64,000 nt of DNA from an uncultured Clostridium sp. GTDB taxonomy: Bacteria > Bacillota > Clostridia > TANB77 > CAG-508. The notes under the pieces were generated by a model that saw only the letters and a list, made by a program, of their open reading frames with translations, did not search any database and was not told the DNA's origin. A program made the translations under genes and the position numbers. Below, piece by piece: positions 757 through 35,255 of this stretch (positions are counted from its first letter, which is position 1; each line of letters starts with the position of its first letter). The DNA is taken from NCBI GenBank assembly GCA_902461935.1, contig CABPZP010000002.1, forward strand, positions 43,685-107,684, in the 5' to 3' direction.

Positions 757-1273
757 ATTTGAAAATTAAAAAGAAAGCTGATATAATACTAAACGATGGT
801 GCATTATTCTAGTCATACTGTCTATTATGAGGGTGGGGCTAAAAATCCACTAAAGGGCACATCGTTGAAGTTTCTTGTTTGTGCGCGAAATGCCAGTTTT
901 GTGTGTTTGCAGGGAGTAAAGGAATTAGGGTAGTATATAATGGCATATATATGATTCCCTCATTTCGCGGAGGCTTAAGTTGCATCTTAAGTATAACCTA
1001 TGTTGAGTGCCAAGACACAAAATACATAGTGTAGCCTGTCTCGAGTGAAGGTATTGGGATTAATTTACCGAGAATTTAAAAGTTCGGCCAAATTTTTAAA
1101 TTTTTAGTTATGAAATTGCCTTTGCAAAAAAGACTAATAATAGAATAAAGTATGTTAAGGAAAACTTCTAGGCTGTTAGTTCATTTAAGAACTAGGAAAG
1201 CTAAGGATTAAGGTACGGATTTAAGTGGTGATCTGGTGTTCATTTTATGAATATTTTCTTTAAACGGAAACGA
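757..1273. other. ORF-free, GC-elevated block; candidate structured ncRNA or long leader (family unassigned)
   Basis: No ORF of 60 aa or more in six frames. Visibly more G/C than the flanks. Complementary segments: aacgatggtgc (791-802) / gcacatcgtt (857-867); atgaggg (833-839) and cgcgaaatg (884-892) both complement ccctcatttcgcg (957-969); cttaag..cttaag (974-991). Confidence 0.3.
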
Positions 1274-1535
1274 CTAAATAGTAATATTTAGTAGAAAATA
1301 GAGAAATTCGACTAGACCTAAACCGTAAAATTTACTTAGCTTTTTACCATCTAAAATAATATAAATTAGAAGGGATTGAACAAAAATAGATAAAGCAAAT
1401 AAAGATAAAGAAAACTCAGGGCTGAAATGGTTTGTAACAGTTTTTATAACAACATTTATTTTATCAATAACATTTTCATTTATTTCAACAAATGCATTAA
1501 ATAATTTACCATTAATACCAGCTATACTCATTTTA

Positions 1536-2705: not shown

Positions 2706-2720
2706 AAAAAATAGATTAAT

Positions 2721-2757
2721 GTCAAACGTTGTAGGGGTCGGCGTCCCCGACGACCCG
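2721..2757 (+). repeat. REP-like unit (leader GTCAAACGTT + GTAGGGG + hairpin GGGTCGGCGTCCCCGACGACCC)
   Basis: Sequence read directly. A hairpin-less leader copy follows at 2776-2791 (aatgtcaaatgttata). Confidence 0.85.
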
Positions 2758-2819
2758 TAAAAAAAGCATATAATTAATGTCAAATGTTATAAATTAATAA
2801 TTAGAAAGGAGAATTAAAA

Positions 2820-14932: not shown

Positions 14933-15395
14933 AATGTTAATCTCCTTTTTACAACATTAATCTTATTATACTATAAAATAAGGGAAAAATAAAGAGAAAT
15001 TTTAAAATTTAAAGTTAAGATAAAAAATGCTTGAATTTTCTTTATAAATATAGTATAACAAAAACATATTGTAAACAAAAAATTTACAATATGTTTATTT
15101 TTTTCAAACAAATTTATTTCAATGTGATTTTTATTCTAAAAAATCCAAATGAAAAACAAATCTAAATGAAAGGAGGTAAAACAGAAACAAACAGGTAAAA
15201 ATTATAACAAAATCTTGAATAAGAAAATACAAATTGTTATAATAAAGAAAGGAAATTTTTGAAATTAAAAAAAAATATTAGATTAAAAAATTATGATTAT
15301 TCAAAAGAAGAATATTATTACATAACAATATGCATAAAAAATAGAAAAGAATTATTATCAAAAATTATAGTTTGCAACGAAAATAAATTAATAAA

Positions 15396-15501
15396 TGTAG
15401 GGGCGGACGTCTCTGTCCGCCCGAAACAAAATAAAAATAACATTAAAATATTTAACAAACATAAATTAGACGTTGTAGGGGTCGGCGTCCCCGACGACCC
15501 G
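15396..15501 (+). repeat. two REP-like units inside the HUH pseudogene
   Basis: TGTAGGGGCGGACGTCTCTGTCCGCCCG at 15396-15423. agaCGTTGTAGGGGTCGGCGTCCCCGACGACCCG at 15468-15501. Confidence 0.85.
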
Positions 15502-15652
15502 AAAAAATACATATTAAATTAACAACATATGGAGAAATTATAGAAAAACAAATAAAAGAAATAAATAATATTTACAAAAATATAAAAATAGAAAATTATA
15601 TAATAATGCCAAATCATGTGCATATGATTATAGAATTAGCAAGACAAGAAAA

Positions 15653-15680
15653 CGGGTCGTCGAGGACGCCGACCCCTACA
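15653..15680 (-). repeat. REP-like hairpin, minus orientation
   Basis: rc reads TGTAGGGGTCGGCGTCCTCGACGACCCG. Confidence 0.85.
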
Positions 15681-15708
15681 AAATGGATTCGAGGAGAGTG
15701 AAGAAAAA

Positions 15709-15993
15709 ATGGCAGAGAAGAAAAATAAAACCTTAGAAAAAGCAAGAAAAGAAATGACATATCTAACAGGAGATGAAGAAATAAGAAGACTAGCAGAACT
15801 AAGAGAAAAATGGGAGATGGATTGGAATAGCTCTATGGATTATTCAAAAAAAGAAGGAATAAAAGAGGGTGTAACCGAAGGAAGAAAAAAAGAAAGACTA
15901 GAAAATGCAAAAAAAATGAAAGAAGAGAAAATACCAACAGAAACAATCATGAAAATAACAGGTTTAACAAAAGAAAAAGTAGAAAAGCTATAA
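15709..15993 (+). CDS. stand-alone fragment resembling the C-terminus of Rpn-family (TIGR01784-type) recombination-promoting nuclease/putative transposase
   Basis: 94 aa ending ENAKKMKEEKIPTETIMKITGLTKEKVEKL, the typical Rpn C-terminal helix pair. No nuclease core. Confidence 0.5.
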   Translation: MAEKKNKTLEKARKEMTYLTGDEEIRRLAELREKWEMDWNSSMDYSKKEGIKEGVTEGRKKERLENAKKMKEEKIPTETIMKITGLTKEKVEKL

Positions 15994-16142
15994 AACTATT
16001 TAAATTATAAAAAATATAATATAAATTTAACTACAAAATTTAAATAAAAAACGCTTGAAAAATTTAACTAAATATTATATAAATAAAACATATTGTGAAA
16101 ATAATATGTTTTATTTTTTAGCAAATAAAAGAGGAGATTCAA

Positions 16143-32360: not shown

Positions 32361-32558
32361 CGTAAAATACTGCAGGAGCAGACATCTCTGGCAGACCAAA
32401 ACAGAAAAAAATATATAAACTTACGTCAAACGTTGTAGGGGCGGATGCCTCTGTCCGCCCGTAAAAGAAAAAATTATATATAAATCAATGTCAAACATTG
32501 TAGGGGTCGGCGTCCTCGACGACCCGAAAAAAATATATATAAATTAACGTCAAAATTT
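32361..32558 (+). repeat. head-to-tail array of three REP-like units plus a terminal hairpin-less leader
   Basis: Units at 32361-32397 (decayed), 32424-32461 (GGGCGGATGCCTCTGTCCGCCC) and 32489-32526 (GGGTCGGCGTCCTCGACGACCC). Orphan leader aacgtcaaaattt at 32546-32558. Confidence 0.85.
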
Positions 32559-34314: not shown

Positions 34315-34349
34315 CATCAAACGTTGTAGGGGCACGGTGCTCCGTGCCC
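34315..34349 (+). repeat. REP-like unit with stem GGGCACGG/CCGTGCCC
   Basis: catcaaacgttGTAGGGGCACGGTGCTCCGTGCCC, followed by the orphan leader atcgttaaatatt (34371-34383). Confidence 0.85.
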
Positions 34350-34545
34350 AAAAAAGATACAATTCAAAATATCGTTAAATATTCTAACATCATATATCAG
34401 GAAATATTTAACAGAAACTATTGCGCAATAAATTTATTTAATGTAGAATATAAACATAATTTATATCGAACTAATTTTATTCAAATATTTAATTCTTAAA
34501 TAGCCAAAAAAATTAAAATAATAAGAAAAATGGAGATGGTGCTTA

Positions 34546-35118
34546 TTGAACAATAAAATCAATTCTGAGATAAATATTAATGAAAATGTAGAAAAAATTT
34601 ACAACGATGATAGTATACCAAAATTTACATTCAAAGACTTTTTAAAATACCAGGCAATATTTCATCCAGAAGATAAAATAGAATTTGATAATATGCTTGA
34701 GCTTAACGAAGATTCAGAAGATTATAATTACAACAAGGTAAATAATGAACATGATAAAGTGTTTAGAACAATTTTAAGTGATAAAAAGGAAGCAGTAATT
34801 TTTATAAATAAAGCATTAGATTTAAATTTAAAAGAAAGTGAAATAGAAAAATACAAAGAAAATTACATAACAGAAAATTTAATAAGAAAAATAAATAAAG
34901 AGGAGGAAAAAGAAATGTTAGCAATATTAGATACAATAGCTGAAGAAAATGAAAGAATATTACAACAAGGAATAAGAAAAGGAATAAAAAAGGGAAAAAT
35001 TGAGGGAATAAAAGAGACAACAATTAATAATGCAAAAAAGATGAAAAAAGCAAATATAGATATTAAATTAATAATGGAGATAACTGGTTTGAAAAAAGAA
35101 GAGATAGAAAGGTTATAA
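34546..35118 (+). CDS. internally deleted Rpn-family (TIGR01784-type) nuclease/transposase-like fragment
   Basis: N-terminal HDKVFRTILSDKKEAVIFINKAL and C-terminal NNAKKMKKANIDIKLIMEITGLKKEEIERL match the two ends of Rpn-type proteins. The PD-(D/E)xK core is missing. Confidence 0.5.
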   Translation: MNNKINSEININENVEKIYNDDSIPKFTFKDFLKYQAIFHPEDKIEFDNMLELNEDSEDYNYNKVNNEHDKVFRTILSDKKEAVIFINKALDLNLKESEIEKYKENYITENLIRKINKEEEKEMLAILDTIAEENERILQQGIRKGIKKGKIEGIKETTINNAKKMKKANIDIKLIMEITGLKKEEIERL

Positions 35119-35153
35119 ATATTTGAAAAAACAAAAAATACAATTCAAAATAT

Positions 35154-35255
35154 CGTCAAACATTGTAGAGGCACGGTGCTCCGTGCCCGAAAATTAAAAA
35201 TATAATCTAAAATTCTGTCAAAAGTTGTATGTATCGGTGTCCTTAGGGTAACCCG
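35154..35255 (+). repeat. two REP-like units (second is AT-decayed)
   Basis: cgtcaaacattGTAGAGGCACGGTGCTCCGTGCCCG at 35154-35189. ctgtcaaaagttGTATGTATCGGTGTCCTTAGGGTAACCCG at 35215-35255. Confidence 0.8.

What the first reader, a model, noticed from the sequence alone, without database searches (positions are those of the whole stretch)
15259..15701. HUH (IS200/RAYT-like) transposase gene colonised by the REPs and truncated
The N-terminal part (NYDYSKEEYYYITICIKNRKELLSKII) and the HUH part (YIIMPNHVHMIIEL) belong to one Y1-transposase-like protein. They are separated by two + strand REP units (15396-15501) and lie in different frames.

Reading stops 17 codons after the HUH motif, right after a - strand REP (15653-15680). 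That is before the region where the catalytic Tyr helix would be expected.

The REPs are translated as VGADVSVRP, VGVGVPDDP and SSRTPTPT. From memory, full-length members of this protein family in other bacteria carry similar GC-rich peptide stretches after the HUH motif. The relationship between this gene family and the hairpin may therefore be old and intimate.

This is the only candidate mobilising enzyme in the window, and it appears dead. The gene next to it is a stand-alone Rpn C-terminal fragment, which adds to the impression of a mobile-element graveyard.
Basis: partly seen in the sequence, partly recalled or inferred. Interest (0 to 1): 0.7.

Follow-up and report, generated by a model that had tools for sequence, protein, structure and literature searches.

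The report
Dead RAYT gene with built-in REPs
This is a broken copy of a REP-mobilising tyrosine transposase (RAYT) gene; two of its three embedded REP hairpins are a normal, already described part of intact genes of this subfamily, and the gene was killed by a 1-base frameshift and a 153-base internal deletion, not by the REPs.

Summary
Window 15259-15701 carries the N-terminal and HUH parts of one Y1/RAYT protein in two frames, with three GTAG-tagged GC-rich hairpins inside.

Intact orthologues (174-180 aa, 70-82% identical) read the second + strand REP (VGVGVPDDP) and the - strand REP (GSSRTPTPT) in frame. An intact 208-aa orthologue also reads the extra first REP in frame.

The window copy is dead for two other reasons:
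- An A7->A6 frameshift lies just 3' of the second REP.
- A 153-nt in-frame deletion abuts the - strand REP. It removes the WQ motif and the catalytic Tyr (YIxNNP).

Motifs, fold and REP placement fit TnpA_REP subclass 2.4 (RAYT Group 4). In-frame REPs inside the gene were reported for this subclass by Quentin et al. 2018.

Beyond what I read in that paper:
- 62 of 82 related loci have a codon-phased inverted GTAGGG...CCCTAC pair at the same two loops.
- The hairpins differ between genomes but match within a gene. Arm differences are mostly compensatory.

The neighbouring "Rpn fragment" is not debris. It is an intact RpnS-like small gene that follows the RAYT gene directly in every context examined.

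Novelty is low to moderate.

The parts
15057..15104 (+). AT-rich hairpin (AACAAAAACATATTGTAAA / TTTACAATATGTTTATTTT) followed by a T-run. It marks the left edge of the conserved ~1-kb module.
   Evidence: Inverted repeat I5. Homology among six module copies in different contexts starts here. The consensus terminator scan did not call it because it has fewer than 3 G-C pairs.
15215..15243 (+). Sigma-70-type promoter-like site, TTGAAT-17-TATAAT with TG upstream of the -10 hexamer, in front of the RAYT gene.
   Evidence: The sequence is nearly invariant in six module copies.
15259..15522 (+). RAYT pseudogene, N-terminal reading frame: TTG start, RLKNYDYS...YYYITICIK beta-1 region, then the REP-coded loop. 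It stops at 15520-15522 because of the frameshift.
15382..15456 (+). Net 75-nt (25-codon) in-frame insertion relative to the short allele. It carries the extra REP plus a spacer.
   Evidence: Nucleotide alignment with L001/L002. The same insertion is in frame in the intact 208-aa L085/L086 gene and in P0001, P0003 and P0011.
15397..15423 (+). Extra REP (subfamily A, GTAGGGGCGGACGTCTCTGTCCGCCCG), read as VGADVSVRP.
15475..15501 (+). Native intragenic REP, arm 1 (subfamily B), read as VGVGVPDDP. It lies in the loop after the beta-1 region.
   Evidence: In frame in intact orthologues. Arm 1 is codon-phased (GTA = Val) in 61 of 62 family loci. The peptide falls in a low-pLDDT loop of the model.
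15502..15507 (+). A6 run, the frameshift site. Intact L001 has A7 here.
   Evidence: The same A6 is present in an independent metagenome assembly of the same locus (L083, 98.8% identical).
15508..15701 (+). RAYT pseudogene, second frame: helix alpha-A region (LTTYGEII...), HUH strand (HVH codons 15615-23), REP-coded loop, then the native C-terminal WIRGE and the stop codon.
15653..15679 (-). Native intragenic REP, arm 2 (reverse complement of subfamily B), read as GSSRTPTPT. It lies in the loop between the HUH strand and the next helix.
   Evidence: The corresponding peptide, residues 109-117, has pLDDT below 50 in the model. Quentin et al. 2018 place the REP insertions of subclass 2.4 in this loop.
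15682..15685 (+). Junction of the 153-nt (51-codon) in-frame deletion. It lies 3 nt from the CCCCTAC end of arm 2 and is ambiguous by a 3-nt ATG microhomology. The deletion removes residues 118-169 of P0002.
   Evidence: The deleted part contains IWQRNYYEHIIR and KY(M/I)xNNP. These align with the GTAG-binding W94/Q95 region and the DYIYINP Tyr motif of 4ER8.
15709..15993 (+). RpnS-like small gene (94 aa), the conserved downstream partner of the RAYT gene.
   Evidence: TIGR01784 positions 187-273 of 273, E 9e-9. It starts at an internal Met of longer Rpn/PDDEXK_2 proteins and varies in the number of 4-aa repeats (compare Zhong et al. 2023). It lies immediately downstream of the RAYT gene in L001, L002, L084, L085/86 and L087.

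Best explanation
Window ~15057-15993 is a decayed copy of a ~1-kb two-gene module.

The module consists of an AT-rich hairpin, a promoter, a REP-associated tyrosine transposase gene (TnpA_REP/RAYT, subclass 2.4 = Group 4) and, directly downstream (overlapping the RAYT stop by 8 nt in four copies), an RpnS-like small gene.

In intact copies the RAYT reading frame itself contains two GTAG-tagged REP hairpins in inverted orientation. They are translated as two surface-loop peptides: VGVGVPDDP after the beta-1 region, and GSSRTPTPT between the HUH strand and the next helix. The same REP type is scattered about 17 times through the window.

By analogy with E. coli TnpA_REP (inferred, not shown here), the intact enzyme would bind the GTAG-plus-hairpin on single-stranded DNA. 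It would cut and rejoin it through the Tyr of the YIxNNP motif.

The window copy cannot do this, for two reasons:
- A 1-nt loss in an A-run right after arm 1 splits the frame.
- A 153-nt in-frame deletion starting 3 nt from arm 2 removes the WQ (GTAG-recognition) region and the catalytic Tyr.

A third REP upstream of arm 1 is an in-frame addition that intact alleles also tolerate. The REPs are therefore native or tolerated parts of the gene. They may have favoured the adjacent lesions, but they are not what interrupts the gene.
For: Homology and gene structure:
- Contiguous homologues at 70-82% identity cover both halves and carry VGVGVPDDP and GSSRTPTPT in frame.
- Nucleotide alignment to L001/L002 pinpoints the 75-nt insertion, the A7->A6 change and the 153-nt deletion.
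- The intact 208-aa allele includes the extra REP.
- The same frameshift appears in an independent assembly.

Family assignment:
- Intact orthologues pass the Pfam Y1_Tnp threshold and hit NCBIfam REP_Tyr_transpos at E ~1e-19.
- The family profile hits 4ER8 at E 1.8e-11, with the WQ and Y motifs aligned.
- An AlphaFold model (pLDDT 80) finds 4er8_A as its best PDB match. Both REP-coded peptides fall in low-confidence loops.
- The motifs NHVH / WQ / Y(I/M)xNNP and in-frame intragenic REPs match the published description of subclass 2.4 (PMC6006769).

Family-wide pattern:
- 62 of 82 loci have the GTAGGG...CCCTAC pair.
- The codon phase is fixed: 61/62 for arm 1 and 54/62 for arm 2.
- Over the 21 nt after GTAGGG, identity is a median 19/21 within a gene and 8/21 between genomes.
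- Of 39 stem pairs that differ between the two arms of one gene, 26 are compensatory.

Window context:
- No other RAYT-like sequence is present in the window.
Against: - The window fragment alone scores below the curated Pfam and NCBIfam cut-offs. The assignment therefore rests on its orthologues.
- Intact orthologues also stay below the NCBIfam equivalog cut-off (68-71 against 80 bits).
- Enzyme activity, REP mobility and the cleavage site were not tested. They are inferred from E. coli TnpA_REP, which belongs to a different subclass (2.2).
- Placement in subclass 2.4 rests on motifs and features, not on a tree with the published seed sequences.
- It is not shown whether the lesions were caused by the adjacent hairpins.
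- The compensatory pattern between arms could come from replacement by other genomic REP variants rather than from selection in place.
Confidence: 0.88

Rival explanations
1. One reading: an originally REP-free transposase gene was invaded by three REPs, and these insertions disrupted and truncated it.
For: Three REPs lie inside the gene. Both lesions sit within 6 nt of a REP. The first REP is a genuine insertion relative to the short allele.
Against: Two of the REPs are in frame in intact orthologues, and the third is in frame in an intact 208-aa orthologue. The pair sits at the same two protein positions and the same codon phase across 62 loci from many bacterial groups. The actual lesions are a homopolymer indel and a deletion.
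Confidence: 0.05
2. The split frame is functional. A programmed ribosomal or transcriptional slip in the A-run joins the two frames. The short Tyr-less product acts as a REP-binding regulator or a dominant-negative form.
For: The frameshift lies in a slippery A6 run. The deletion is in frame and keeps the native C-terminus and stop. The allele is present in two independent assemblies. The promoter and the downstream gene are intact.
Against: Other decayed variants are diverse: frameshifts at other sites, another REP-abutting deletion in L087, a leader fusion in P0021, and truncations after GSP. This looks like ordinary decay. No conservation of a Tyr-less form was seen across lineages. The deletion removes the region that recognises GTAG in E. 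coli TnpA_REP.
Confidence: 0.05
3. The frameshift or the deletion is an assembly or sequencing artefact at hairpin or homopolymer sequence, and the real gene is intact.
For: GC-rich hairpins and homopolymers are error-prone. Contigs of related assemblies often break at this gene (L083 ends at the equivalent of window 15556).
Against: L083, an independent metagenome assembly, has the identical A6 and the identical extra REP. A clean 153-nt in-frame deletion with 3-nt microhomology is not a typical assembly error. The deletion itself could not be checked in a second assembly.
Confidence: 0.04

Closest known systems
TnpA_REP subclass 2.4 (Quentin, Siguier, Chandler & Fichant 2018, PMC6006769) = RAYT Group 4 (Bertels et al. 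2017, PMC5581495)
   Same: - Key motifs NH[IFV]H, WQ and YIxNNP.
- No C-terminal extension domain.
- Extra conserved N-terminal motif.
- Canonical GTAG-tagged long REPs.
- REPs inserted in frame inside the tnpA_REP gene, in the loop after the HUH strand. This is the subclass's 'remarkable and unique feature'.
- Patchy distribution over many phyla.
- Few abundant flanking repeats in many genomes.
   Different: - The window copy is a pseudogene.
- The paper describes variable insertions mainly between HuH and Y. Here a second fixed site after the beta-1 region forms an inverted pair with the first, in fixed codon phase. The two arms co-vary and keep their hairpins by compensatory changes.
- The lineage is an AT-rich OLE-RNA-bearing Firmicute/Clostridia-like organism rather than Cyanobacteria or Bacteroidetes.
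- The gene is coupled to an RpnS-like small gene.
E. coli TnpA_REP (YafM; PDB 4ER8; subclass 2.2)
   Same: - HUH/Y1 fold. It is the best sequence-profile hit and the best Foldseek hit.
- The IWQ..F.EH.IRN and Y-I-x-x-NP motifs align.
- GTAG tetranucleotide at the foot of a GC-rich hairpin.
   Different: - About 18% identity.
- E. coli REPs flank the gene (REPtron) and are not inside the reading frame.
- Different HuH (DHLH) and Y (YIHYNP) motif variants.
- It has a C-terminal extension.
IS200/IS605 TnpA (IS608, ISDra2)
   Same: Same fold and same HUH-plus-Tyr chemistry on single-stranded hairpin DNA (Foldseek hits ranked 2-30). The strong bias of REPs towards one strand fits an ssDNA, replication-coupled mechanism.
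   Different: - No subterminal LE/RE hairpins on one strand flanking the gene.
- No Y...Q motif.
- NCBIfam transpos_IS200 scores only 16 bits.
- The hairpins are inverted and intragenic.
RpnS small proteins of Rpn toxin-antitoxin/defence genes (Zhong et al. 2023, PMC10400941)
   Same: - The neighbouring ORF matches the last ~87 positions of the Rpn model.
- It begins at the position of an internal Met of longer Rpn proteins.
- It shows variation in the number of 4-aa repeats.
   Different: - It is a separate gene without an RpnL nuclease part upstream, and it sits behind a RAYT gene.
- Antitoxin activity was not tested.

Membership tests
HUH/Y1 transposase superfamily (Pfam PF01797 Y1_Tnp) | Profile match above the curated threshold | tested here: inconclusive
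   The window fragment scores 19.4 bits against a cut-off of 23. Intact orthologues P0002, P0005 and L085 score 23.6-25.8 bits and pass.
HUH/Y1 transposase superfamily | HUH motif | tested here: met
   PNHVHMII at 15609-15632. It aligns with the HUH motif of 4ER8.
HUH/Y1 transposase superfamily | Catalytic tyrosine on the C-terminal helix | tested here: not met
   It is deleted in the window copy by the 153-nt deletion. It is present as KY(M/I)xNNP in orthologues. The window copy is therefore a relic, not a functional member.
HUH/Y1 transposase superfamily | Fold | tested here: met
   Tested on orthologue P0002. The AF2 model has pLDDT 80. The best PDB match is 4er8_A (E 7e-7, TM 0.54/0.58), followed by ISDra2 and IS608 TnpA.
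RAYT / TnpA_REP (class 2) | Association with GTAG-tagged GC-rich palindromes (REPs) present in many copies in the genome | tested here: met
   There are 17 units in 64 kb, against 0.2 expected. Identical units lie inside the gene.
RAYT / TnpA_REP (class 2) | NCBIfam NF047646 REP_Tyr_transpos equivalog cut-off (80 bits) | tested here: not met
   The fragment scores 30.6 bits and intact orthologues score 68-71 bits (E ~1e-19), below 80. The model is far the best hit but is evidently built on other subclasses.
RAYT / TnpA_REP (class 2) | WQ...(D/E)H.IR region that contacts GTAG in E. coli TnpA_REP | tested here: not met
   It is deleted in the window copy. It is present as IWQRNYYEHIIRN in orthologues.
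TnpA_REP subclass 2.4 / RAYT Group 4 | Key motifs NH[IFV]H, WQ, YIxNNP | tested here: met
   Orthologues have NHVH, WQ and YMKNNP/YMQNNP. More distant members have YIxxNP (compared with Table 1 read).
TnpA_REP subclass 2.4 / RAYT Group 4 | REPs inserted in frame within the gene, in the beta3/alphaC loop | tested here: met
   The published description was read.
TnpA_REP subclass 2.4 / RAYT Group 4 | Phylogenetic placement with the published subclass 2.4 sequences | not tested
A Pasteurellaceae locus (L081) among the relatives fits Group 4's occurrence in Haemophilus.
Rpn family, C-terminal RpnS part (neighbouring ORF) | Match to the C-terminal end of the Rpn model, own start at the internal Met, and 4-aa repeat variation | tested here: met
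   TIGR01784 positions 187-273 of 273, E 9e-9, at 35.5 bits. This is below the whole-protein cut-off of 52.1, as expected for a part. Repeat variation is seen.
Rpn family, C-terminal RpnS part (neighbouring ORF) | Blocks a cognate RpnL nuclease | not testable with these tools
   This needs co-expression assays.

The most novel reading that the evidence does not exclude
The inverted REP pair inside subclass 2.4 RAYT genes is not a set of tolerated insertions. It is an ancestral, selected part of the gene: a REPIN-like doublet kept at two fixed, codon-phased loop positions.

Its hairpins are maintained by compensatory change even in genomes with no REP copy nearby. It would serve as the enzyme's permanently linked recognition site. 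It could act as a master copy from which dispersed REP units are seeded, as an auto-limiting structure (a 28-bp duplex in the mRNA), or as both.

In this lineage the gene additionally travels with an RpnS-like small gene as a ~1-kb multi-copy module.
Probability: 0.3. Interest if true: 0.6.

Novelty: new member of a known kind. Interest (0 to 1): 0.35.

Why it matters
For annotating this window, the result is corrective:
- The gene is a RAYT relic.
- Its REPs are native to the gene.
- The real lesions are now mapped to the base.
- The live enzyme, if any, should be sought just outside the window.
- The neighbouring ORF should be annotated as an RpnS-like gene, not as debris.

More generally, the locus led to a simple, checkable regularity in a little-studied RAYT subclass. 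A transposase gene carries two copies of its own substrate hairpin in frame, at fixed positions. The two copies co-vary with each other and keep their hairpin pairing across many bacterial groups.

That makes the question 'what keeps a RAYT and its REPs matched over long times' testable, by recoding the intragenic hairpins synonymously.

The REP-abutting deletions in the window and in L087 also hint that these hairpins are local deletion hot spots.

Tried and rejected
- Rfam scan of the whole window: only an OLE RNA at 780-1366, nothing at this locus.
- Consensus terminator scan: none called. The AT-rich leader hairpin fails the G-C criterion.
- The genome-contig scan was meant to name the organism. 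The best relative is only 53% identical, so the window's species is not represented by an intact copy. The scan did give 80 loci for the family analysis.
- I tested whether the RpnS-like ORF accompanies distant RAYTs. It does not; only the close relatives have it.
- I tested whether extragenic REP flanks are copies of the gene's arm-1 or arm-2 context over 45 nt. Only modest z-scores (up to 3.6) were found for the 5' flank against arm 1, and nothing for arm 2. The shared part is a short TGTCAAAC(G/A)TT motif and an AAAAAA(G)ATACAA tail. One clear 68-nt match at 91% exists. The direction of copying, gene to genome or genome to gene, stays open.
- Extragenic copies of each genome's intragenic REP within flanks of up to 10 kb: present in 21 of 57 loci, absent in 36. 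Whole-genome counts were not possible.
- I considered a programmed frameshift and an assembly artefact. Both are unlikely (see rival explanations).
- I considered an IS200-type element with the AT-rich hairpin as a left end. No matching right-end structure and no consistent target duplication were found.

Full report
**1. What is in the sequence**

The window is AT-rich (27.6% G+C). Between 15259 and 15701 there are two reading frames.
- The first starts with TTG at 15259 and stops at 15522. It encodes MKLKKNIRLKNYDYSKEEYYYITICIKNRKELLSKII..., then VGADVSVRP, a 16-residue spacer, and VGVGVPDDPKKYILN*.
- The second reads KIHIKLTTYGEIIEKQIKEINNIYKNIKIENYIIMPNHVHMIIELARQENGSSRTPTPTKWIRGE* and ends at 15701.

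Three GC-rich hairpins headed by GTAGGGG lie at 15397-15423 (+), 15475-15501 (+) and 15653-15679 (-). The last two form a 29-nt inverted repeat that is 97% complementary, with 151 nt between the arms.

The head-plus-stem pattern occurs 15 times in the window, against 0.2 expected in shuffles. Two more units of a third subfamily bring the total to 17, and 16 of these are on the + strand.

**2. What the gene is**

The fragment alone gives only sub-threshold profile hits: Pfam Y1_Tnp E 1e-3, and NCBIfam REP_Tyr_transpos E 2.6e-7.

A search of the large protein collection found 86 relatives. The closest are contiguous proteins of 174-180 aa that cover both halves at 70-82% identity. An example is P0002:

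MELKRKNIRLKNYDYSKEGYYYITICIKDRKEILSKIGSYNAKSMSDNVGVGVPDDPKKIHIKLTTYGEII...IIMPNHVHMIIELARQENGSSRTPTPTNAKIPIIVSTLKRLTNKEIENKIWQRNYYEHIIRNEKEYYEIIKYMKNNPIRWIEKEGENKNG.

Further evidence for the family:
- These intact proteins pass the Pfam threshold and hit REP_Tyr_transpos at E ~1e-19.
- A profile of 24 family members hits E. coli TnpA_REP (4ER8) at E 1.8e-11, with IWQ..F.(D/E)HIIRN and Y-I-x-x-NP aligned.
- An AlphaFold model of P0002 (pLDDT 80) has 4er8_A as its best PDB match, followed by ISDra2 and IS608 transposases.

**3. What is native and what is damage**

I aligned the window with two intact orthologous genes, L001 and L002.
- (i) The second + REP and the - REP are present and in frame in the intact genes.
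- (ii) The window has a net 75-nt in-frame insertion (about 15382-15456) that carries the first REP and a spacer.
- (iii) The A-run directly after the second REP is A6 in the window and A7 in L001. This causes the frame change.
- (iv) 153 nt (51 codons) are missing between 15682 and 15683. The deletion starts 3 nt from the CCCCTAC end of the - REP, with a 3-nt ATG microhomology. It is in frame, so the 'early stop' is the gene's own stop after the native C-terminal W-I-x-G-E.

The deleted residues (118-169 of P0002) include the helix after the HUH strand, the WQ...EHIIR region and the Tyr of KYMKNNP. In E. coli TnpA_REP the aligned residues W94, Q95, E100, H101 and R104 contact GTAG. N119 of the Y motif is essential there (PMC6006769; alignment).

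The extra first REP is not disabling in itself. L085/L086 encode an uninterrupted 208-aa protein that contains it and keeps all motifs.

An independent metagenome contig with the same neighbours (Band_7, NfeD) is 98.8% identical. It has the same extra REP and the same A6, so the frameshift is real. That contig ends before the deletion site.

**4. Other copies**

No other RAYT-like sequence exists in the window. The only tblastn hits elsewhere are REP-coded peptides.

L002 is 93% identical to window 60722-64000 (the rpoA-rplQ region). It has its intact copy about 6.8 kb further on, so an intact paralogue may lie just beyond the window.

Among close relatives many copies are decayed in different ways:
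- truncation after GSP;
- frameshifts before arm 2 or near the Y motif;
- a 105-nt in-frame deletion starting 5 nt after arm 1 (L087);
- a fusion of leader and post-arm-1 sequence (P0021).

**5. Family-wide pattern**

A scan of one genome per species found 495 relatives, and I kept 80 loci.
- In 62 of 82 loci the gene contains a GTAGGG...CCCTAC pair 150-290 nt apart.
- GTA is a Val codon in 61 of 62 loci. The second arm is in one phase in 54 of 62.
- Each arm folds into a hairpin of about 8 bp.
- Over the 21 nt after GTAGGG, the two arms of one gene share a median 19 positions. Arms from different genomes share 8. There are 51 distinct arm sequences.
- Where the two arms of one gene differ within the stem, 26 of 39 affected pairs are compensatory double changes, 2 are one-sided and 11 are broken.
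- In the protein alignment the two peptides occupy the same two variable columns.
- In the model they are low-confidence loops. Residues 109-117 score below 50.
- Only 21 of 57 loci have a further copy of their own REP within the flanks held, which reach up to 10 kb.
- As RNA, the intact segment is predicted to pair the two arms into a 28-bp stem (-73 kcal/mol, z = -10.8). The compensatory pattern nevertheless favours the local hairpins as the conserved unit.

**6. Comparison with the literature**

Quentin et al. 2018 (PMC6006769) define TnpA_REP subclass 2.4 (= Bertels' RAYT Group 4). Its features are:
- motifs NH[IFV]H / WQ / YIxNNP;
- median length 194 aa;
- canonical long or 'double foot' REPs.

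[quoted passage not shown] The insertions are in frame, mostly between HuH and Y, in the beta3/alphaC loop.

Bertels et al. 2017 found Group 4 in 17 bacterial classes, with only modestly abundant flanking 16-mers.

What I did not find in the text of that paper:
- the regular two-site inverted arrangement;
- the fixed codon phase;
- the arm-to-arm covariation.

Di Nocera et al. 2013 (PMC3733652) describe intragenic REPs in other genes, and RAYT genes flanked by REPs or TIRs.

**7. The neighbour**

ORF 15709-15993 matches the last 87 positions of the Rpn model. It is not a remnant.
- An intact homologue follows the RAYT gene directly in L001, L002, L084, L085/86 and L087, and overlaps its stop by 8 nt in four of the copies. 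That is at least five different genomic neighbourhoods counting the window.
- The ~1-kb homology block runs from the AT-rich hairpin at about 15057 to this ORF's stop.
- The ORF begins exactly at an internal Met of longer Rpn/PDDEXK_2 proteins (...NDRGKIK|MAEKKNK...).
- It differs between copies by multiples of four residues, such as KEGI, KEGV and TEGR. This is the signature of RpnS antitoxin proteins (Zhong et al. 2023, PMC10400941).
- It was not found next to distant RAYTs.

**8. Verdict**

The locus is a pseudogene copy of a subclass 2.4 RAYT, with native intragenic REPs and an intact RpnS-like partner gene. The causal story ('colonised and truncated', 'graveyard') is not.

Mechanistic statements about REP binding and cleavage are inferences from E. 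coli TnpA_REP.

Novelty is that of a new member of a known kind, with a modest extension (the regular covarying pair and the RpnS-like partner) that deserves follow-up.

Noticed in passing
window 15709-15993; L001 10536-10787; L002 10534-10776; L084 3001-3285; L085/L086 3001-3273; L087 3001-3261: An RpnS-like small gene lies immediately downstream of the RAYT gene in every close relative examined, overlapping its stop by 8 nt in four of the copies. It starts at the internal Met of longer Rpn proteins and varies in 4-aa repeat number. Together the two genes form a ~1-kb module found in at least five different genomic neighbourhoods. I found no description of a RAYT-RpnS pairing in the papers read.
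   Followed up: partly
window-wide: REPs at 2731, 4660, 7232, 15397, 15475, 24641, 28957, 32435, 32500, 34326, 35165, 36081, 51443, 57511, 57633, 62389 (+) and 15679 (-): 16 of 17 REPs have the GTAG strand on the + strand. The + strand is also the G-rich strand (GC skew +0.2 to +0.3 in 14 of 16 4-kb blocks, near 0 in two) and the coding strand of most genes. The only - strand REP is the intragenic arm 2. This fits either insertion into the lagging-strand template or selection as 3' mRNA elements. The two cannot be separated here.
   Followed up: partly
window 2718-2777, 32482-32548, 34318-34375, 35135-35200 and others: The dispersed repeat unit is longer than the hairpin, about 65-70 nt. It consists of TGTCAAAC(G/A)TT, the GTAG hairpin, and AAAAAA(G)ATACAA... 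It is often found in direct arrays with a period of about 65 nt. The unit is homologous to RAYT nucleotides ~127-194 around arm 1 (91% over 68 nt). The direction of copying is unresolved.
   Followed up: partly
L087 2712-2750 (relative to L002 10177-10281); window 15682/15683: Two independent in-frame deletions start within 3-5 nt of an intragenic REP: 105 nt after arm 1 in L087, and 153 nt next to arm 2 in the window. This suggests the hairpins are local deletion hot spots, or sites of RAYT cleavage.
   Followed up: no
window 34546-35118, with REPs at 34326-34352 and 35165-35191: A second Rpn-like C-terminal ORF (190 aa; TIGR01784 positions 133-272, E 1.6e-10) is bracketed by two direct REPs of a third subfamily (GCACGGTGCTCCGTGCC). 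A degenerate REP follows at about 35227.
   Followed up: partly
window 780-1366 (+): A full-length OLE (ornate large extremophilic) RNA is present, at 365 bits over model positions 1-616 of 616. It points to an anaerobic Firmicute/Clostridia-type host.
   Followed up: no
window 15002-15104 and 16026-16125: Two 73%-identical direct repeats bracket the module in the window. Each has a promoter-like AAAAAAYGCTTGAA...TATAA followed by an AT-rich hairpin (ACATATTGT.../...ACAATATGT) and a T-run. The second copy precedes the next gene (16143). L002 has a further copy of the module's leader at 15039-15195. The function is unknown; a promoter-proximal attenuator or an operator palindrome are possibilities.
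   Followed up: partly
window 60722-64000 vs L002 1-3220: The rpoA-rplQ region is 93% identical to a metagenome contig (ENA ERZ27287375 k141_890786). On that contig an intact RAYT module sits between murG and a prepilin-peptidase gene, about 6.8 kb downstream. That position would lie just outside the window.
   Followed up: no
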